A stretch of 64,000 bases of DNA from a virus. A program made the translations under genes and the position numbers. The notes under the pieces were generated by a model. The model was not told where the DNA came from, ran no database searches, and saw nothing but the letters and a program-made list of their open reading frames with translations. Location of the stretch: positions 1 through 64,000 of IMG/VR virus record IMGVR_UViG_3300027977_000027. One strand, given 5' to 3'. Below are positions 22,574 through 45,280 of the stretch, piece by piece (position 1 is the stretch's first letter; each line of letters starts with the position of its first letter).

Positions 22574-22675
22574 ATGAGAAACATTAACATACATATTAAT
22601 TCGATTAGCATGTGGAGACGCAATAGTAATCCACTTGAATCGGCTATGTCTGTAAGTTTCTTTAGTGACTTTTAA
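22574..22675 (+). CDS. Putative attenuator leader peptide of tRNA operon 1
   Basis: MRNINIHINSISMWRRNSNPLESAMSVSFFSDF*, between promoter (22503) and terminator. Confidence 0.75.
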   Translation: MRNINIHINSISMWRRNSNPLESAMSVSFFSDF

Positions 22676-22743: not shown

Positions 22744-22769
22744 GGTTCATTGACATATTGGTTAAATAC

Positions 22770-22840
22770 ACAGGACACAGGCTTGGTGTCGGTGGGCTCC
22801 CCAAAAGCTTCACGAGTTGCTTCGATTGCAACGTCCTGTG
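22770..22840 (+). tRNA. Atypical tRNA-Trp(CCA)
   Basis: acaggac/gtcctgt-G, gggct-ccCCAaa-agctt, gttgc-TTCGATT-gcaac; weak D arm, C33. Confidence 0.6.
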
Positions 22841-22845
22841 CACAT

Positions 22846-22928
22846 ACACTAGCTCATGGGCGTGACCAACAGACTCCAAATCTGTTCTTAGGATTAAATG
22901 GTTGTAGATTCGACTTCTACCTAGTGTG
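22846..22928 (+). tRNA. tRNA-Trp(CCA) with long variable region
   Basis: acactag/ctagtgt-G, acaga-ctCCAaa-tctgt, gtaga-TTCGACT-tctac. Confidence 0.7.
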
Positions 22929-22933
22929 CATAT

Positions 22934-23020
22934 GGAAGGTGCCTCGCATGGAGCGAAACTAGTCTTGAAAACTAGGGTGGCGGTGATGAGCCGTCAGGGG
23001 GTCGGGTCCTCCACCTTCCT
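22934..23020 (+). tRNA. tRNA-Ser(TGA), 8/4 fold
   Basis: ggaaggtg/caccttcc acceptor, ctagt-ctTGAaa-actag, long variable arm, 4 bp T stem. Confidence 0.8.
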
Positions 23021-23027
23021 CTTACAT

Positions 23028-23100
23028 GGTGTTAGTAGCTCAGAGGCAGAGCGCTGGTTTGTGAAGCCAGAGGTCGGGATTTCGAAATTCCTCTAACACC
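23028..23100 (+). tRNA. tRNA-His(GTG)
   Basis: G-1:C73, ctggt-ttGTGaa-gccag. Confidence 0.9.
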
Positions 23101-23209
23101 CTCTTAAAATTTAACCGTCACCAAACAATGGTTTGGACTCCATGAGTGGGATGCCAGTGAATATGATAATAAACTGGGGCGGTTTAGGGATTGGGAAAAT
23201 TAAAATAAC

Positions 23210-23291
23210 ATTGCGCCATACCGAGCGAACCTGATAAATTCGATATTCGTAGCTGGTGTTGAAAACGTGAGTTCGAGTCTCACCGTGCCTA
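23210..23291 (+). tRNA. Degenerate tRNA-Ile(GAT)-like element
   Basis: cgaac-ctGATaa-attcg, long variable region, gtgag-TTCGAGT-ctcac; 5' acceptor strand and D arm poorly formed. Confidence 0.45.
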
Positions 23292-23299
23292 CTAAACAT

Positions 23300-23381
23300 T
23301 CATAGGTAGCCTAGAGGCCAGGCAGCAGACTGTTAATCTGCGGAAGCAATTCCTACGTGGGTTCGATTCCCACCCTGTGAG
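23300..23381 (+). tRNA. tRNA-Asn(GTT) with long variable arm
   Basis: tcatagg/cctgtga-G, gcaga-ctGTTaa-tctgc, ggaa-gcaa-ttcc arm. Confidence 0.85.
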
Positions 23382-23391
23382 CAAATAATAT

Positions 23392-23478
23392 GGTGTGGTG
23401 GCAGAGAGGTCGATTTCGATAGACTCATATTCTCTTTCCTTACCAAAGGACACACAGATTCGAATCCTGTCCACGTTA
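23392..23478 (+). tRNA. Degenerate CAT-anticodon tRNA (Met or Ile2) with long variable arm
   Basis: ggtgtgg/ccacgtt with three GU pairs, aga-ctCATat-tct, acag-aTTCGAATc-ctgt. Confidence 0.45.
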
Positions 23479-41527: not shown

Positions 41528-41832
41528 TGGTTAACTTAAACAAAGAACCTTATGATGTTTACATAGGTAGAGGTTCAAAATGGGGAAACCCATATACAAC
41601 CATAAAAGATAAAGAAACTTTAGCTTGTGAAATAGTCGATTCTTCTGAAGAAGCTATTTCAAAATATAAAGAACACATCCTATCAACACCAGAACTATAT
41701 GATTCACTTCATGAATTGGAAGGGAAAACACTTGGGTGTTTTTGCAAACCAAAACCATGTCATGGGGATGTGTTATTGGAATTAATCAGTCAAAAAAACT
41801 TAAAAAATTTTTTTGTTAAAAACGTTAAATAA
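41497..41832 (+). CDS. DUF4326 family protein
   Basis: DVYIGRGSKWGNP, LEGKTLGCFCKPKPCHGDVL. Confidence 0.85.
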   Translation: MENKKQTPTIVVNLNKEPYDVYIGRGSKWGNPYTTIKDKETLACEIVDSSEEAISKYKEHILSTPELYDSLHELEGKTLGCFCKPKPCHGDVLLELISQKNLKNFFVKNVK

Positions 41833-41896
41833 CTTGCAACTATAATATCTTTTATGTACATTTGCATTATTAATAACAATTCATAAAAAAAAAATT

Positions 41897-42121
41897 ATGA
41901 GTAATACTAGAACAGAACAAAGCGTTAAAAATGGTATCAAAATTTTGAAAATCGCTATCAGACGCAACATTTCACTTTCAGAAGCATCACGCCAAGCCAA
42001 TTATGGCCGTAACTATGTTTCTGATATCAAACTTCGTTTGAGAGAAAATTATCGCAGCAAAAACGTAACGAAAGAGACTTATGCTCAGTTCAATGCGTTG
42101 ATGAAAGAATACGCTGGGTAA
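41897..42121 (+). CDS. Small basic HTH-like protein
   Basis: ISLSEASRQANYGRNYVS. Confidence 0.55.
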   Translation: MSNTRTEQSVKNGIKILKIAIRRNISLSEASRQANYGRNYVSDIKLRLRENYRSKNVTKETYAQFNALMKEYAG

Positions 42122-42238
42122 TTAAAAAAAAAGTTTGAAAAAAACTTGACAATATCAAAAAAAGTTTGTACCTTTGCATAACTTTTAAAAACAAAGACAT
42201 ATTTAATTAAAACGGGGAAACCCAAAAACAAAAAAAAA

Positions 42239-42331
42239 ATGAGAACTTTTGCTAACATATTCGATTTTGCGTTTGAATTCGCAGCCGAGGCCGATAAAAG
42301 CCTAGGGGTCAAGTATATTGTCAAAAGTTAA
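42239..42331 (+). CDS. Putative attenuator leader peptide of tRNA operon 2
   Basis: MRTFANIFDFAFEFAAEADKSLGVKYIVKS*, between promoter (42168) and terminator. Confidence 0.75.
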   Translation: MRTFANIFDFAFEFAAEADKSLGVKYIVKS

Positions 42332-42355
42332 CATAAAAGTTAAGTGTGTGATAAG

Positions 42356-42390
42356 AAGCCTGACCATAAAAAGTCAGGCTTTTTTGTTTT
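42356..42390 (+). terminator. Attenuator terminator upstream of tRNA operon 2
   Basis: aagcctgac-cataaaaa-gtcaggctt + ttttgtttt. Confidence 0.85.
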
Positions 42391-42399
42391 AAAACATAT

Positions 42400-42472
42400 G
42401 GGACGGTAGCTCAGTTGGTAGAGCAGTGGCCTGAAGAGCCACGTGTCGCTGGTTCGATTCCAGCCCGTCCCA
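42400..42472 (+). tRNA. tRNA-Phe(GAA)
   Basis: gtggc-ctGAAga-gccac, canonical. Confidence 0.92.
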
Positions 42473-42477
42473 CGCAT

Positions 42478-42549
42478 GGCACCATCGAATAGTGGTTAGT
42501 TCGTCTGGTTTTCAACCAGAAAACAGGGGTTCAATTCCCCTTGGTGCTA
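42478..42549 (+). tRNA. tRNA-Glu(TTC)
   Basis: tctgg-ttTTCaa-ccaga. Confidence 0.9.
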
Positions 42550-42597
42550 CAAAATGTTACGGTAGACTAGCCTCTAGTCAACGTTGGGTCCTTATAT

Positions 42598-42674
42598 GGA
42601 ATATTAGTAGAGTTGGTTACAATATCGCACTGTCACTGCGAAGGTCACGGGTTCGAATCCCGTATATTCCGCCA
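42598..42674 (+). tRNA. tRNA-Asp(GTC)
   Basis: tcgca-ctGTCac-tgcga, encoded GCCA. Confidence 0.92.
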
Positions 42675-42766
42675 AAAATGGTAATCGTTATTTTTGTGGT
42701 GGCCACCACGAATAATGAAAATCCATACTAAGTAACGAATGATGGCCATCAATAGTTATTTAGTTA

Positions 42767-42837
42767 GAGGATGTAGTTTAATTGGTAAAACTCTGGCGTG
42801 GAGCCAGAAGTTGTGGGTTCGAACCCCATCATCTTCC
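42767..42837 (+). tRNA. tRNA-like gene with abnormal anticodon loop (Pro TGG or His-like)
   Basis: gaggatg/catcttc, good D and T arms, tctggc-gtgga-gccaga. Confidence 0.55.
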
Positions 42838-42843
42838 AAATAT

Positions 42844-42916
42844 GGGGTGCCATGTACCAAGGCTGGCGAGAGACCTTTGCAAGGTTTCTGGTAGGATTCG
42901 ATTTCCTAGCGCTCCA
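42844..42916 (+). tRNA. tRNA-Ala(TGC)
   Basis: G3:U70, A73, agacc-ttTGCaa-ggttt; atypical D arm. Confidence 0.8.
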
Positions 42917-42976
42917 CAAAGCTCCGAAAGGGGCTTTTTTTATTTGTTTGGATATTTATGAAAAAGCAACTTTAAG

Positions 42977-45280
42977 ATGAAAATTTCAAATATATTTAAA
43001 GAAATCATTAATGAAGATTTCAAGTCGCAGACAGCTAATTTTATTAAACAAGGTTTCGATGCTAATATTGTTAAAACATATATTGATAAGTTTAAGTATA
43101 TTAGAGATAACAAGTTCAAAGAAATGTTTGATGATAAGTTAGACATTCCAGTGCCACCTCAAAAACGTAACGATATTGATGCTTATAAAGATTTCCATGA
43201 TTTGGAAAGGTTGGTTGATTATGTTGGTGGTAGAAGACAAGGTGTTTCAACACTAGGTAAGAAAGAAGATATAGAATTGGACGCAAAACCAGTATATGAA
43301 GATGACAATTTTATTGTTTACTATGCCGATACTCCAAGAGCTTGTATAAAGTATAAGGGTAGTTTTCCTTATTCATGGTGTGTAGCTAGAAGTGATTCTT
43401 CTAATATGTTTTACACATATCGTTTTAAACCTTATGAGCCAGCTTTTTATTTTGTTAAAAACAAAAAATTGACCGAAAAAGAATTTGGTGTTTGGAATAT
43501 GACTAAGAATGTTTTTAAAGGACAGTTTAAATATCCATATCACTTTTTTGTTATTCAAGTACCAAAAAACATAGACATTGAAAGTGATGAAAATGAACAA
43601 TATATTGTTACTTCAGCAAATAATGATGGTGACAAACAGATGAGTTGGAAAGATATATTAAAACTAAGTCCGAATATTGCACAAATAAAAGAAGTACTTA
43701 AACCAAAACCTTTTACAGATGAAGAAAGGGAAAAGAATAATAGATTTAAGAATGGTATAAATGACCAAGAATTTGCTAAACTAAGTTATGAAGATAAAAG
43801 AAGTTATTTGGACATTTATCCAACAATATCTAGACCAATTACAACAAAACAATTGATTGAACTTCCAGATGATTTATTAAACCTTTATGTTTCTTTTGGT
43901 ATAGGTTTAAATGACGAACAATTCGCACACATAAAACCAAAAAAAGATGTTTTAAAAAGATACACGCAAATAAGTAAAAGAAAGTTAGAAGAGTATTTAA
44001 AAAATTCTACATATGACCGTAGAAGATTAAGAATGGCATACACTGAACTTATTGTTTTGTCTGATGAAGAAATTAAGAGTTATTTAGAAACATTAGATAA
44101 AAAAGAGTTAAATAGATTTATTAAAGACAATGGTGAAGATAAAATAGAAATGTTGGAGAAACATGTTTCAGATAAATTTACCAGTGAATTTAAAGATTTA
44201 AAAACTATTGTTTTAAAAGCTAAAGACGATGACGAGGAAGCCTTGAATAAATTATATTCAATGGTACCAGAAAATGTTGATATAACTTTTTCTAACTCTG
44301 GTAATTTTATAATCATAGACACCAGCAATTACGGAAGCATATTACAAAAAAGAATGAGTAGTAACGTTTATGAATTATTAGAAAGAGTTGAAGAAGATAG
44401 ACAATGGGGTGGTAGTTATTACGATGATTATTTTTATGATGACCCAGAAAGGTTGGATGAAGAATATAAACATTATCTTACAGAATTTATAAATAACAAT
44501 AAAGATTTAAAACAAGAATTCGATTCATTTGGTTTAGAGTTTAATTTTGAAACTGTTGATGATTTATTAGAAACTTACAAAGAAAAAGATGGTATCAGAG
44601 AAACGATTAGTAGTGAATATACTTACGCTAAAGAAAAATCCGAACAAAAAGCTTGGGATAAAGTAAAAAATGAGATTAAATCTATTGTTTATTTGTATGA
44701 TGATGCTTTATACATGAAAGTTGGTCCGTTCATAATGAATTTGCTTTCTTATAAATTATTTACAACAGATGCTGAACAGTTTATAGATAATTTAGGTGAT
44801 TTTATTGATAATATGTTAAATGATAATGATTTACCTGATAATATGGATACAGTTTGGGAGGAAGTTAATGAAGCTGGTTGGAATTTTATGGATGTTGATA
44901 ATGATGAAATATATAGGACAATAAAGAGTAATATTTCAGATGCTATAGATAAGTTTTCTAACGATGAAGGTGCTCAGGATGATACTGAAGAACAACCAAA
45001 TACGGTAAAATTAAAATCAGAAATTATTACCCTTTTAAAGAATACTTTAAAAGGTTTGGGTCAAAGTCCAGATGCAAAGACGATAGAAAATGATATTGCA
45101 AGGATAGATATTGACCGCCAAAGATTTAAGTTAGATGGTAAGGTTTACATAAAAATATATGATAAACAGCAAAAAAAAGAACATGAAGGTTATGTGTTTA
45201 TCAATGATTTACCATCATATTTTAGAAACTACAAACTTTTTGAACAAGTTAGTAGAATTAAAAATTTAATGAGGTATTAA
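42977..45280 (+). CDS. Large probable virion internal protein
   Basis: 767 aa, ATATTTAT upstream, MKISNIFKEIINE start, SWCVA motif, C-terminal LFEQVSRIKNLMRY. Confidence 0.6.
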   Translation: MKISNIFKEIINEDFKSQTANFIKQGFDANIVKTYIDKFKYIRDNKFKEMFDDKLDIPVPPQKRNDIDAYKDFHDLERLVDYVGGRRQGVSTLGKKEDIELDAKPVYEDDNFIVYYADTPRACIKYKGSFPYSWCVARSDSSNMFYTYRFKPYEPAFYFVKNKKLTEKEFGVWNMTKNVFKGQFKYPYHFFVIQVPKNIDIESDENEQYIVTSANNDGDKQMSWKDILKLSPNIAQIKEVLKPKPFTDEEREKNNRFKNGINDQEFAKLSYEDKRSYLDIYPTISRPITTKQLIELPDDLLNLYVSFGIGLNDEQFAHIKPKKDVLKRYTQISKRKLEEYLKNSTYDRRRLRMAYTELIVLSDEEIKSYLETLDKKELNRFIKDNGEDKIEMLEKHVSDKFTSEFKDLKTIVLKAKDDDEEALNKLYSMVPENVDITFSNSGNFIIIDTSNYGSILQKRMSSNVYELLERVEEDRQWGGSYYDDYFYDDPERLDEEYKHYLTEFINNNKDLKQEFDSFGLEFNFETVDDLLETYKEKDGIRETISSEYTYAKEKSEQKAWDKVKNEIKSIVYLYDDALYMKVGPFIMNLLSYKLFTTDAEQFIDNLGDFIDNMLNDNDLPDNMDTVWEEVNEAGWNFMDVDNDEIYRTIKSNISDAIDKFSNDEGAQDDTEEQPNTVKLKSEIITLLKNTLKGLGQSPDAKTIENDIARIDIDRQRFKLDGKVYIKIYDKQQKKEHEGYVFINDLPSYFRNYKLFEQVSRIKNLMRY

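What the first reader, a model, noticed from the sequence alone, without database searches (positions are those of the whole stretch)
42168..42916. tRNA operon 2 has an independent leader peptide rich in F/A/E/D matching its Phe, Ala, Glu and Asp tRNAs
Seen: ORF 42239-42331 MRTFANIFDFAFEFAAEADKSLGVKYIVKS; 14 of codons 4-19 are Phe (5), Ala (5), Glu (2) or Asp (2); then terminator 42356-42390 and tRNAs Phe, Glu, Asp, an abnormal tRNA and Ala. The peptide shares almost no sequence with leader 1 but has the same layout: sensing codons up to 19, then ggtca (42307-11) complementary to tgacc (42361-65) in the terminator and ttgtca/tgataa nested inside. Two different codon sets each matching their own array is an internal replicate, making chance unlikely. 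Mechanism is inference.
Basis: partly seen in the sequence, partly recalled or inferred. Interest (0 to 1): 0.94.

Follow-up and report, generated by a model that had tools for sequence, protein, structure and literature searches.

The report
Leader-peptide attenuator gating phage tRNA operon
A giant lake phage puts a tiny test gene, written in Phe, Ala, Glu and Asp codons, and a switchable transcription stop in front of its Phe, Glu, Asp and Ala tRNA genes, so it probably makes these tRNAs only when ribosomes decode those codons slowly.

Summary
ORF 42239-42331 has 14 F/A/E/D codons among codons 4-19. It is followed by an intrinsic terminator and, 9 nt later, by tRNAs Phe, Glu, Asp, an odd UGG tRNA and Ala. 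Only 1 of 145,946 six-frame 16-codon windows of the record reaches 14: the leader itself.

Relatives keep it. 13 of 14 related loci with a Phe/Glu/Asp/Ala array carry the leader (11 distinct coding sequences with the window's). Variable sites in the sensing block fall 1/2/8 on codon positions 1/2/3. Three other array classes (Cys/Val/Leu; Pro/Gln/Tyr/Thr/Gly/Lys; Trp/Ser/His/Ile/Asn/Met/Arg) each have their own matching leader, and one 306-kb relative has all four.

ORF codons 23-29 pair either with codons 4-10 or with the terminator's 5' strand, with covariation. This is the classic 1:2 / 2:3 / 3:4 layout.

Best reading: a ribosome-mediated attenuator that gives on-demand tRNA synthesis. There are no RNA or bench data.

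Ten literature searches found no published account. Earlier agents of this scan noted the same design on other phage DNA.

The parts
42146..42176 (+). Bacteroidota-type promoter: TTG (42146-42148), a 20-nt spacer, then the -7 box TAccTTTG (42169-42176). The predicted transcription start is near 42181.
   Evidence: Read. TAnnTTTG is the sigma-A -7 box at -12 to -5 in flavobacteria (passage of PMC9723704). The same box precedes leader 1. The start site is inferred.
42181..42238 (+). 5'UTR, nearly identical to that of leader 1. It holds ATATTTAAT, a small GGG..CCC hairpin (42214-42223), and 14 A among the 15 bases before the ATG.
   Evidence: A-content before the ATG is 0.93, against a mean of 0.47 for 97 long ORFs, none of which reaches it.
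42239..42331 (+). Leader ORF of 30 codons plus TAA.
   Evidence: Homologues occur in 13 of 14 related loci with this array.
42248..42295 (+). Sensing codons 4-19 (14 of 16 are F/A/E/D). The core block, codons 8-19 (FDFAFEFAAEAD), is 12 of 12.
42250..42266 (+). Region 1 (codons 4-10). It pairs with region 2 when no ribosome covers it.
42307..42323 (+). Region 2 (codons 23-29): GGUCA, GU and UUGUCA. It pairs with region 1 or with region 3.
42349..42365 (+). Region 3: UGAUAA, GC and UGACC. It overlaps 6 of the 7 core 5'-strand bases of the terminator stem.
42353..42390 (+). Intrinsic terminator (regions 3:4). The core stem is 42356-42364 with 42373-42381, followed by a T tract. It ends 9 nt before the first tRNA.
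42400..42473 (+). tRNA-Phe (GAA)
   Evidence: 73.3 bits.
42478..42550 (+). tRNA-Glu (UUC)
   Evidence: 66.6 bits.
42598..42674 (+). tRNA-Asp (GUC)
   Evidence: 63.9 bits.
42767..42837 (+). Odd tRNA with anticodon UGG, G at position 33 and a G3-U70 pair. The leader has no matching codon.
   Evidence: (55.2 bits). The relative L027 also has a UGG tRNA in this array.
42844..42917 (+). tRNA-Ala (UGC) with G3-U70.
   Evidence: ARAGORN only. Rfam did not report it at E <= 1.
42918..42945 (+). Terminator that closes the operon.

Best explanation
This is a ribosome-mediated (leader-peptide) transcription attenuator that gates tRNA operon 2 of a giant phage whose promoters are of the Bacteroidota type.

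Transcription starts at the promoter at 42146-42176. A ribosome loads on the A-rich 5'UTR and translates the 30-codon leader. Three outcomes follow.

- Slow decoding. If Phe, Asp, Ala or Glu codons (codons 4-19) are read slowly because the matching charged tRNAs are scarce, the stalled ribosome covers region 1 (codons 4-10). Region 2 (codons 23-29) then pairs with region 3 as it emerges. This takes up 6 of the 7 core bases of the terminator's 5' strand, and polymerase reads through into the Phe, Glu, Asp, (UGG) and Ala tRNA genes.
- Fast decoding. The ribosome runs on to the stop codon and covers region 2. The terminator forms and the tRNAs are not made.
- No translation. Regions 1 and 2 pair and the terminator forms.

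The products of the operon relieve the stall, so the loop is negative feedback: tRNA supply on demand.

Shown here: the anatomy, the statistics, the conservation, the coding-type substitution pattern, and the conserved, covarying alternative folds. Inferred: that the ORF is translated, that stalling changes read-through, and that tRNA shortage rather than amino-acid shortage is the natural signal.
For: (1) Codon enrichment. 14 of 16 codons are F/A/E/D, and only 1 of 145,946 windows of the record reaches that.

(2) No separate promoter is likely. The terminator's T tract ends 9 nt before tRNA-Phe. The array must therefore be transcribed through the terminator.

(3) Conservation. 13 of 14 related loci with a Phe/Glu/Asp/Ala array carry the leader. 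With the window there are 11 distinct coding sequences. In the 12-codon block of 10 alignable sequences, variable sites fall 1/2/8 on codon positions 1/2/3, and the indel is exactly one codon. In L018 the order is reshuffled but the same four amino acids remain. Downstream of codon 19 the frame is not kept: L027 is shifted by one base, yet GGAAGGTCA is kept at the RNA level.

(4) Replicates. In all 20 distinct leaders examined, the own tRNA set has the highest count among four sets in codons 2-20. One 306-kb relative (86% complete) has all four leader-gated arrays, and their sets cover the 20 amino acids.

(5) Antiterminator. In 20 of 20 leaders the nascent RNA pairs ORF codons about 19-29 with the terminator's 5' strand. 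The own region 2 x region 3 duplex averages -13.9 kcal/mol against -8.3 for 270 cross-class swaps (Mann-Whitney p = 2e-10). The window's leader 2 scores -13.6, better than all 11 swaps. On the raw alignment of 9 leaders of this class, 78.6% of cells pair against at most 39.2% for slid controls. The covariation score is 0.24 against 0.15 (0 of 500 shuffles reach it), and 4 pairs change on both sides.

(6) Anti-antiterminator. Region 2 pairs with codons about 4-13 in 19 of 20 leaders.

(7) Ribosome masking in this leader, on nascent RNA. The probability of GGUCA:UGACC is 0.02 without a ribosome, 0.98-0.99 with the A site at codons 5-14, and 0.01 at the stop codon.

(8) Energetics. The antiterminator state is 1.2 kcal/mol above the best state that includes the terminator.

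(9) Host plausibility. Leader-peptide attenuation of amino-acid operons has been inferred in a flavobacterium (passage of PMC9723704).
Against: - No transcript data. No RNA run holds the stretch, and the runs that were laid are DNA contigs.
- When the whole leader including the U tract is folded at equilibrium, the terminator has probability 1.00 under every ribosome mask. The switch would therefore have to be kinetic.
- The window's outer antiterminator helix is only 5 exact pairs, which is no more than the null mean. Its support comes from position, the nested helices and covariation.
- With the A site at codons 16-18 my simple mask lets regions 1 and 2 re-pair around the ribosome. I judge this physically implausible but did not model it.
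- The match is not complete. The UGG tRNA has no codon in the leader, and Asn and Ile codons sit within the sensing window.
- L026, the most distant relative, has this array without a leader.
- In L011 and L022 a homing-endonuclease gene sits between the terminator and the tRNAs, so the leader there also gates a protein gene.
- The peptide block NIFDFAFFAAE is more conserved than composition alone would require.
- The host is unknown.
Confidence: 0.75

Rival explanations
1. The attenuator is real but not codon-specific. The leader and terminator set a fixed or generally translation-coupled level of read-through, for example a timer that opens when overall host translation slows. The F/A/E/D composition would then be inherited baggage or serve RNA structure.
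For: All four leader classes share a promoter, a 5'UTR and opening codons, so they are paralogues. The peptide block is more conserved than composition alone needs. At equilibrium the terminator always wins.
Against: Four paralogous leaders diverged to four different codon sets, and each matches its own array in 20 of 20 leaders. Change in the block is mostly synonymous or stays within the set. L018 reshuffled the order but kept the set.
Confidence: 0.1
2. This is an RNA-only switch that is not translated. The structured leader would bind a protein, or tRNAs directly as a T-box does, and the open frame would be incidental.
For: The leader is strongly structured (z = -6.1 against shuffles). The 3' half is conserved as RNA across a frame shift.
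Against: Variable sites fall 1/2/8 by codon position, and there is a one-codon indel. ATG and a stop are kept in every relative, at 22-36 nt from the terminator. The pre-ATG context is A-rich. No T-box or other Rfam cis-regulatory family matches at E <= 1, apart from two weak chance-level reverse-strand hits to a plastid 5'UTR family that lie over the tRNA genes.
Confidence: 0.07
3. This is an independent small gene, for a short peptide or a small RNA, with its own terminator. The tRNAs would be made by leaky read-through or from an unrecognised promoter.
For: The promoter-ORF-terminator unit is complete in itself. The Cys/Val/Leu-class leaders look like hydrophobic membrane peptides.
Against: Only 9 nt separate the T tract from tRNA-Phe, and 2-15 nt in most relatives. 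A membrane-peptide reading cannot explain the acidic F/E/D/A leader or the other two classes. The region 2 / region 3 complementarity that overlaps the terminator would have no purpose.
Confidence: 0.05
4. Chance: a random small ORF next to a terminator.
For: AT-rich DNA has many small ORFs: 610 of 18-45 codons in this record. One unrelated low-complexity ORF reaches 16 of 16 for another set.
Against: Only 1 of 145,946 windows reaches the count. The ORF is conserved in 13 of 14 related loci, and three other classes replicate the design.
Confidence: 0.01

Closest known systems
Multivalent leader-peptide attenuators of enterobacterial amino-acid operons: the ilvGMEDA leader (Ile/Leu/Val) and thrL (Thr/Ile). 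Also the single-amino-acid leaders trpL, hisL, pheL and leuL. All are recalled from textbook knowledge. pheL is also described in the abstract of PMC3082878.
   Same: A short translated ORF enriched in several regulatory codons. An intrinsic terminator before the regulated genes. Mutually exclusive 1:2, 2:3 and 3:4 helices. A ribosome stalled on the regulatory codons selects the antiterminator.
   Different: The regulated genes are tRNA genes, not biosynthetic enzymes, so the output directly replaces the sensed molecule. The element is phage-borne. Its expression signals are of the Bacteroidota type and lack a Shine-Dalgarno sequence. It occurs as four paralogous leaders that divide the 20 amino acids among them. 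It matches no Rfam leader family.
The pheST (Phe-tRNA synthetase) attenuator with its Phe-rich pheM leader in E. coli (recalled; no call).
   Same: A leader peptide rich in Phe codons controls a gene of the translation apparatus rather than a biosynthetic pathway.
   Different: There the target is the synthetase of one amino acid in a cell. Here it is a multi-tRNA array in a phage.
T-box riboswitches (recalled).
   Same: tRNA status decides between terminator and antiterminator upstream of genes of the translation apparatus.
   Different: A T-box binds uncharged tRNA directly, without a ribosome or an ORF. There is no T-box match here at E <= 1, and the element shows coding-type evolution.
The silent long tRNA array (trn operon) of Anabaena PCC 7120, induced under translational stress (PMC8421152; PMC10272220).
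   Same: An accessory tRNA operon that is switched on when translation is impaired.
   Different: According to the abstract of PMC10272220, control is by the protein repressor TrcR. The main text of PMC8421152 has 0 occurrences of 'leader peptide', 'attenuat' or 'terminator'.

Membership tests
Ribosome-mediated leader-peptide transcription attenuator (trpL/hisL/ilvL type) | A promoter, then a short ORF with start and stop upstream of the regulated genes, with no room for another promoter. | tested here: met
   -7 box TAccTTTG at 42169-42176, ORF at 42239-42331, and a T tract ending 9 nt before tRNA-Phe.
Ribosome-mediated leader-peptide transcription attenuator (trpL/hisL/ilvL type) | Enrichment of regulatory codons in the leader. 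| tested here: met
   14 of 16 codons are F/A/E/D. 1 of 145,946 windows reaches that count. Binomial P is 1.3e-7.
Ribosome-mediated leader-peptide transcription attenuator (trpL/hisL/ilvL type) | An intrinsic terminator between the leader and the regulated genes. | tested here: met
   Stem at 42353-42384 plus a T tail. It is present in every homologous leader.
Ribosome-mediated leader-peptide transcription attenuator (trpL/hisL/ilvL type) | An antiterminator (2:3) that excludes the terminator and is conserved. | tested here: met
   Found in 20 of 20 leaders. 78.6% of cells pair against at most 39.2% for slid controls, and 4 pairs covary. The energy gap is 1.2 kcal/mol. With the U tract included, the terminator wins at equilibrium.
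Ribosome-mediated leader-peptide transcription attenuator (trpL/hisL/ilvL type) | An anti-antiterminator (1:2) whose region 1 is covered by a ribosome stalled on the regulatory codons. | tested here: met
   Region 1 is codons 4-10. Seen in 19 of 20 leaders. This test is in silico only.
Ribosome-mediated leader-peptide transcription attenuator (trpL/hisL/ilvL type) | The regulated genes make or charge the sensed amino acid. | tested here: not met
   The downstream genes are tRNAs. The element therefore works like the family but is a new variant of it.
Ribosome-mediated leader-peptide transcription attenuator (trpL/hisL/ilvL type) | Read-through responds to the supply of the cognate charged tRNA. 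| not testable with these tools
   No RNA holder was listed. This needs bench work.
Rfam leader families (Trp, His, Leu, Thr and Phe leaders) and T-box (family names recalled) | A match to the curated covariance model. | tested here: not met
   cmscan of 42140-42990 at E <= 1 gives, besides the tRNAs, only weak sub-threshold hits (E 0.04-0.57): sRNA families, mascRNA-menRNA, and two reverse-strand hits to the cis-regulatory Plastid-ycf2 5'UTR family lying over the tRNA genes. There is no leader or T-box hit.
Repressor-controlled accessory tRNA array (Anabaena TrcR type) | A TrcR-type ribbon-helix-helix repressor and its binding sites. | not tested
   I made no search for TrcR. The abstract of PMC10272220 was read.

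The most novel reading that the evidence does not exclude
These giant Bacteroidota-type phages carry a complete four-channel gauge of decoding capacity. Four paralogous leader peptides together spell all 20 amino acids, and each gates the tRNA block that reads its own codons. The phage would thus detect which host tRNAs are failing and replace exactly those. The tRNAs could fail because of host anticodon nucleases or other tRNA-targeting defences, because of the phage's own attack on the host, or because of a codon-usage mismatch. This would be a ribosome-read, self-correcting counter-defence circuit, and the first case of leader-peptide attenuation acting on tRNA genes.
Probability: 0.3. Interest if true: 0.95.

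Novelty: new variant of a known kind. Interest (0 to 1): 0.85.

Why it matters
Phage tRNA genes are usually discussed as passive codon-usage supplements, or as replacements for tRNAs that host defences destroy. How their expression is controlled is largely unknown.

A leader-peptide attenuator in front of a tRNA array would mean the phage measures decoding speed codon by codon and makes a tRNA set only when it is needed. It would extend a textbook mechanism to a new class of targets, genes whose product is the sensed molecule itself. It would also extend it to viruses and to a phylum with unusual expression signals.

It gives a directly testable handle on when and why giant phages need their own tRNAs. 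It also offers a compact natural design for synthetic sensors of tRNA supply.

Tried and rejected
- Nearest cultured phage. blastn of 41800-43000 against 50,697 phage records gave only tRNA-sized hits covering at most 12% of the query. tblastn with the 767-aa downstream protein gave one uncultured 595-kb record. No tRNA lies within 20 kb of that match, so it was uninformative.
- A single-protein scan of viral contigs found no relatives. An alignment of 26 homologues did.
- Exact-pattern scans with the shared 5'UTR found only leader-1 relatives: L004, L005, L009 and L010. Four other hits were chance matches.
- RNA evidence. No RNA holder was listed.
- Laying contigs of four runs gave fragmentary cover and no information on transcripts. 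One of the runs was labelled RNA-Seq but is probably DNA. The only variant in the sensing block was 42262 C>T, which is synonymous (TTC to TTT).
- Pfam on six neighbouring proteins gave only DUF4326 and T5orf172/MUG113, so there is no functional context.
- Ancestry of the odd UGG tRNA. An alignment with Ala and Pro tRNAs of relatives was inconclusive.
- A poly-Thr small ORF that scores 16 of 16 for another codon set is low-complexity and has no tRNA array behind it. I rejected it as a leader.
- I did not build a covariance model. The covariation counts are on a raw MAFFT alignment and on per-sequence folds, and per-sequence folds lean towards finding pairs.
Table S7 of PMC9723704 (structured 5' regions of a flavobacterium) may list host-type leader peptides, and I could not see it.
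- Claims that nothing is in print rest on ten full-text searches. Subscription-only papers were not searched.
Full report
WHAT THE WINDOW IS. The window is the first 64 kb of a 73,020-bp IMG/VR virus record that CheckV rates 21% complete. It is therefore a fragment of a giant phage. GC content is 31%. The window holds a tmRNA and two tRNA arrays. Promoters have the TTG ... TAnnTTTG form. TAnnTTTG is the sigma-A -7 box of flavobacteria, which also lack Shine-Dalgarno sequences (passages of PMC9723704). A Bacteroidota host is thus inferred, not shown. DNA runs that hold the stretch are lake or freshwater metagenomes. No cultured relative was found among 50,697 phage records.

THE OBSERVATION. 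It is correct at the stated coordinates.
- ORF 42239-42331 reads MRTFANIFDFAFEFAAEADKSLGVKYIVKS. Codons 4-19 hold Phe 5, Ala 5, Glu 2 and Asp 2, plus Asn and Ile.
- A terminator follows at 42353-42384 with a T tail. It ends 9 nt before tRNA-Phe.
- The array is Phe(GAA), Glu(UUC), Asp(GUC), an odd tRNA with anticodon UGG, and Ala(UGC). A second terminator closes it at 42918-42937.
- The Ala tRNA is called by ARAGORN only. Rfam did not report it at E <= 1.

CHANCE. F, E, D and A make up 0.237 of the residues in 97 long ORFs, so binomial P(>=14 of 16) is 1.3e-7. Of 145,946 six-frame 16-codon windows of the record, one reaches 14, and it is the leader. Of 610 small ORFs of 18-45 codons, the next best reaches 10. 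One unrelated poly-Thr ORF reaches 16 of 16 for another set. Low-complexity runs can therefore mimic the signal, but rarely.

THE TWO LEADERS ARE PARALOGUES. Leader 1 (22574-22675) and leader 2 share a 39-nt promoter/5'UTR stretch that differs at one position (2 matches, 0 expected). They also share the opening ATG AGA A, and then diverge. Leader 1's codons 2-19 are all R/N/I/H/S/M/W. Its array holds tRNAs with anticodons CCA, UGA, GUG, GUU, CAU, ACG and UCU. The relative L010 shows Ile(GAU) at the corresponding place.

RELATIVES. The 767-aa protein downstream has 319 homologues among 8,000 scored candidates. An alignment of 26 of them retrieved 30 viral loci.
- 14 loci carry a Phe/Glu/Asp/Ala array. 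13 of them have a homologous leader plus terminator upstream.
- In L011, L012 and L022 a homing-endonuclease gene is inserted between the terminator and the tRNAs.
- L026, the most distant relative (41% protein identity), has the array directly behind a promoter with no leader.
- With the window there are 11 distinct leader coding sequences.

CODING SIGNATURE. In the 12-codon block that follows Asn-Ile, 10 alignable sequences vary at 1, 2 and 8 sites in codon positions 1, 2 and 3. The only indel is one whole codon, GAA. The window was compared with 8 other leaders.
- Codons 4-19: 70 identical, 29 synonymous, 7 within-set and 14 out-of-set differences.
- The remaining codons: 38 identical, 17 synonymous and 55 non-synonymous differences. 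These comparisons are pairwise and not independent.

L018 has a reshuffled block (DFRFETAAFED) that keeps the same four amino acids. After codon 19 the frame is not conserved: L027 is shifted by one base, yet GGAAGGTCA is kept as RNA. The 5' half therefore evolves like codons and the 3' half like structure.

FOUR CLASSES. Relatives show three further array classes, each with its own leader and terminator.
- Cys/Val/Leu, for example MKNLSNILVLLLCLLVVDGMGYVC: 6 distinct leaders.
- Pro/Gln/Tyr/Thr/Gly/Lys, for example MMTTKTYQKQYQPKGGTPQG...
- Trp/Ser/His/Ile/Asn/Met/Arg, which is leader 1.

In 20 of 20 distinct leaders the own set has the highest count in codons 2-20. One relative of 306 kb, 86% complete, has all four leader-gated arrays. 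Its leaders and arrays together cover the 20 amino acids. That genome also has tRNAs outside such arrays.

ALTERNATIVE FOLDS. The leader RNA is strongly structured (z = -6.1).
- In all 20 leaders the nascent RNA, cut before the terminator's 3' strand, pairs ORF codons about 19-29 (region 2) with the terminator's 5' strand (region 3). In the window 6 of the 7 core bases are taken.
- The longest exact helices average 6.45 pairs against 4.95 in cross-class and shuffled controls. Seven leaders have 8 pairs. The window's own helix is 5 pairs, which alone is not above the null.
- Duplex energies are -13.9 kcal/mol for own pairs against -8.3 for 270 cross-class swaps (p = 2e-10). The window's -13.6 beats all 11 swaps.
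- Within the Phe/Glu/Asp/Ala class the three nested helices covary. Examples are AGGUCA:UGACCU against AGGGUC:GACCCU, the middle pairs GU:GC, CU:AG, AC:GU and GC:GC, and UUGUCA:UGAUAA against UGUUGC:GUAACA.
- On the unfitted MAFFT alignment 78.6% of cells pair against at most 39.2% for slid partners. The covariation score is 0.24 against 0.15 (0 of 500 shuffles reach it).
- Region 2 also pairs with codons about 4-13 (region 1) in 19 of 20 leaders.

SIMULATION FOR THIS LEADER. On RNA ending at 42372, the probability of GGUCA:UGACC depends on where the ribosome sits.
- No ribosome: 0.02.
- A site at codons 5-14: 0.98-0.99.
- A site at codon 22, codon 26 or the stop codon: 0.01 or less.

With a 3' footprint edge about 15 nt from the P site (an assumed value), codon 19 is the last A-site position that leaves region 2 free. 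That matches the end of the sensing codons.

Two cautions apply. First, with the A site at codons 16-18 the simple mask allowed regions 1 and 2 to pair around the ribosome. Second, when the full leader with the U tract is folded at equilibrium, the terminator has probability 1.00 under every mask. If only the RNA between a stalled ribosome and the end of the terminator stem is considered, the antiterminator state is 1.2 kcal/mol above the best state. It is within 2.3 kcal/mol in 16 of 20 leaders. The choice would be kinetic, as I recall it is for trp.

MECHANISM. The best explanation is a classical 1:2 / 2:3 / 3:4 attenuator whose output is the tRNA array itself. Slow decoding of Phe, Asp, Ala or Glu codons opens the operon, and the new tRNAs close it again. 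Which natural event causes the shortage is inference. Candidates are tRNA cleavage by host defences, phage attack on host RNA, codon-usage mismatch and amino-acid starvation. tRNA-targeting defences and phage tRNAs as counter-measures are described in abstracts listed.

COMPARISON AND NOVELTY. The element works like the multivalent enterobacterial leaders (recalled). It fails one family feature, because its targets are tRNA genes. It matches no Rfam leader or T-box model. The nearest case in print that I found is the stress-induced tRNA operon of Anabaena. That operon is controlled by the repressor TrcR (abstract), and the earlier paper on it never mentions leader peptides, attenuation or terminators. 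Ten full-text searches found no account of leader-peptide control of tRNA genes.

Earlier agents of this scan reported the same design on other phage genomes. Those are unchecked AI notes and are not counted as evidence here. I class the finding as a new variant of a known kind.

VERDICT. My confidence in ribosome-mediated attenuation is 0.75. Interest is 0.85.

Noticed in passing
window 42767-42837: An odd tRNA with anticodon UGG, G instead of U at position 33, and a G3-U70 acceptor pair, which I recall as the Ala identity mark. The relative L027 has a UGG tRNA with normal U33 at the same place in its array. Its charging identity is unclear.
   Followed up: partly
window 22845-23478: Array 1 holds tRNAs with unusually long variable arms for their anticodons: a CCA tRNA at 22845-22928, Asn at 23300-23381 (82 nt), and a CAU tRNA at 23392-23478 (87 nt). 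The stretch 22760-22840 is unassigned but has acceptor-like ends.
   Followed up: partly
window 17993-17895 (-): A small ORF, MNSVSNGCGCGKPNPTQTTTTTTTTTPPTPSK, with a run of nine Thr, followed by a G+C-rich inverted repeat and T run that looks like an intrinsic terminator (read by eye; no scan run). No tRNA array lies behind it.
   Followed up: no
L016:7839-7930, L018:9592-9669, L020:3526-3601, L028:987-1065, L041:4307-4380, L022:3382-3455, L020:8092-8168: Relatives carry suppressor-type tRNAs (anticodons UUA, UCA, CUA) and tRNAs that ARAGORN reads with four-base anticodons (agac, ttcg). These hint at stop-codon or frame recoding in this phage group.
   Followed up: no
L011:450-842, L022:1416-1814, L009:886-1578: ORFs that look like homing endonucleases (my reading of the printed translations; L009 read by eye from the DNA; no family search) are inserted between a leader terminator and the first tRNA, or between tRNAs. 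In those genomes the attenuator would also gate a protein gene.
   Followed up: partly
window 42196-42207 with 42337-42349: In the ribosome-free fold the conserved 5'UTR stretch GACAUAUUUAAU pairs with the spacer just before region 3. This closes the whole ORF in one domain. The ATATTTA(T/A)T motif recurs in the 5'UTRs of all leader classes and before the next gene (about 42953). It may be a phage-specific promoter or UTR signal.
   Followed up: no
window 42129-42244: Contig depth in four lake and freshwater runs is far higher over the promoter/5'UTR than over the leader body. This fits a stretch that is repeated within and among related phages.
   Followed up: no
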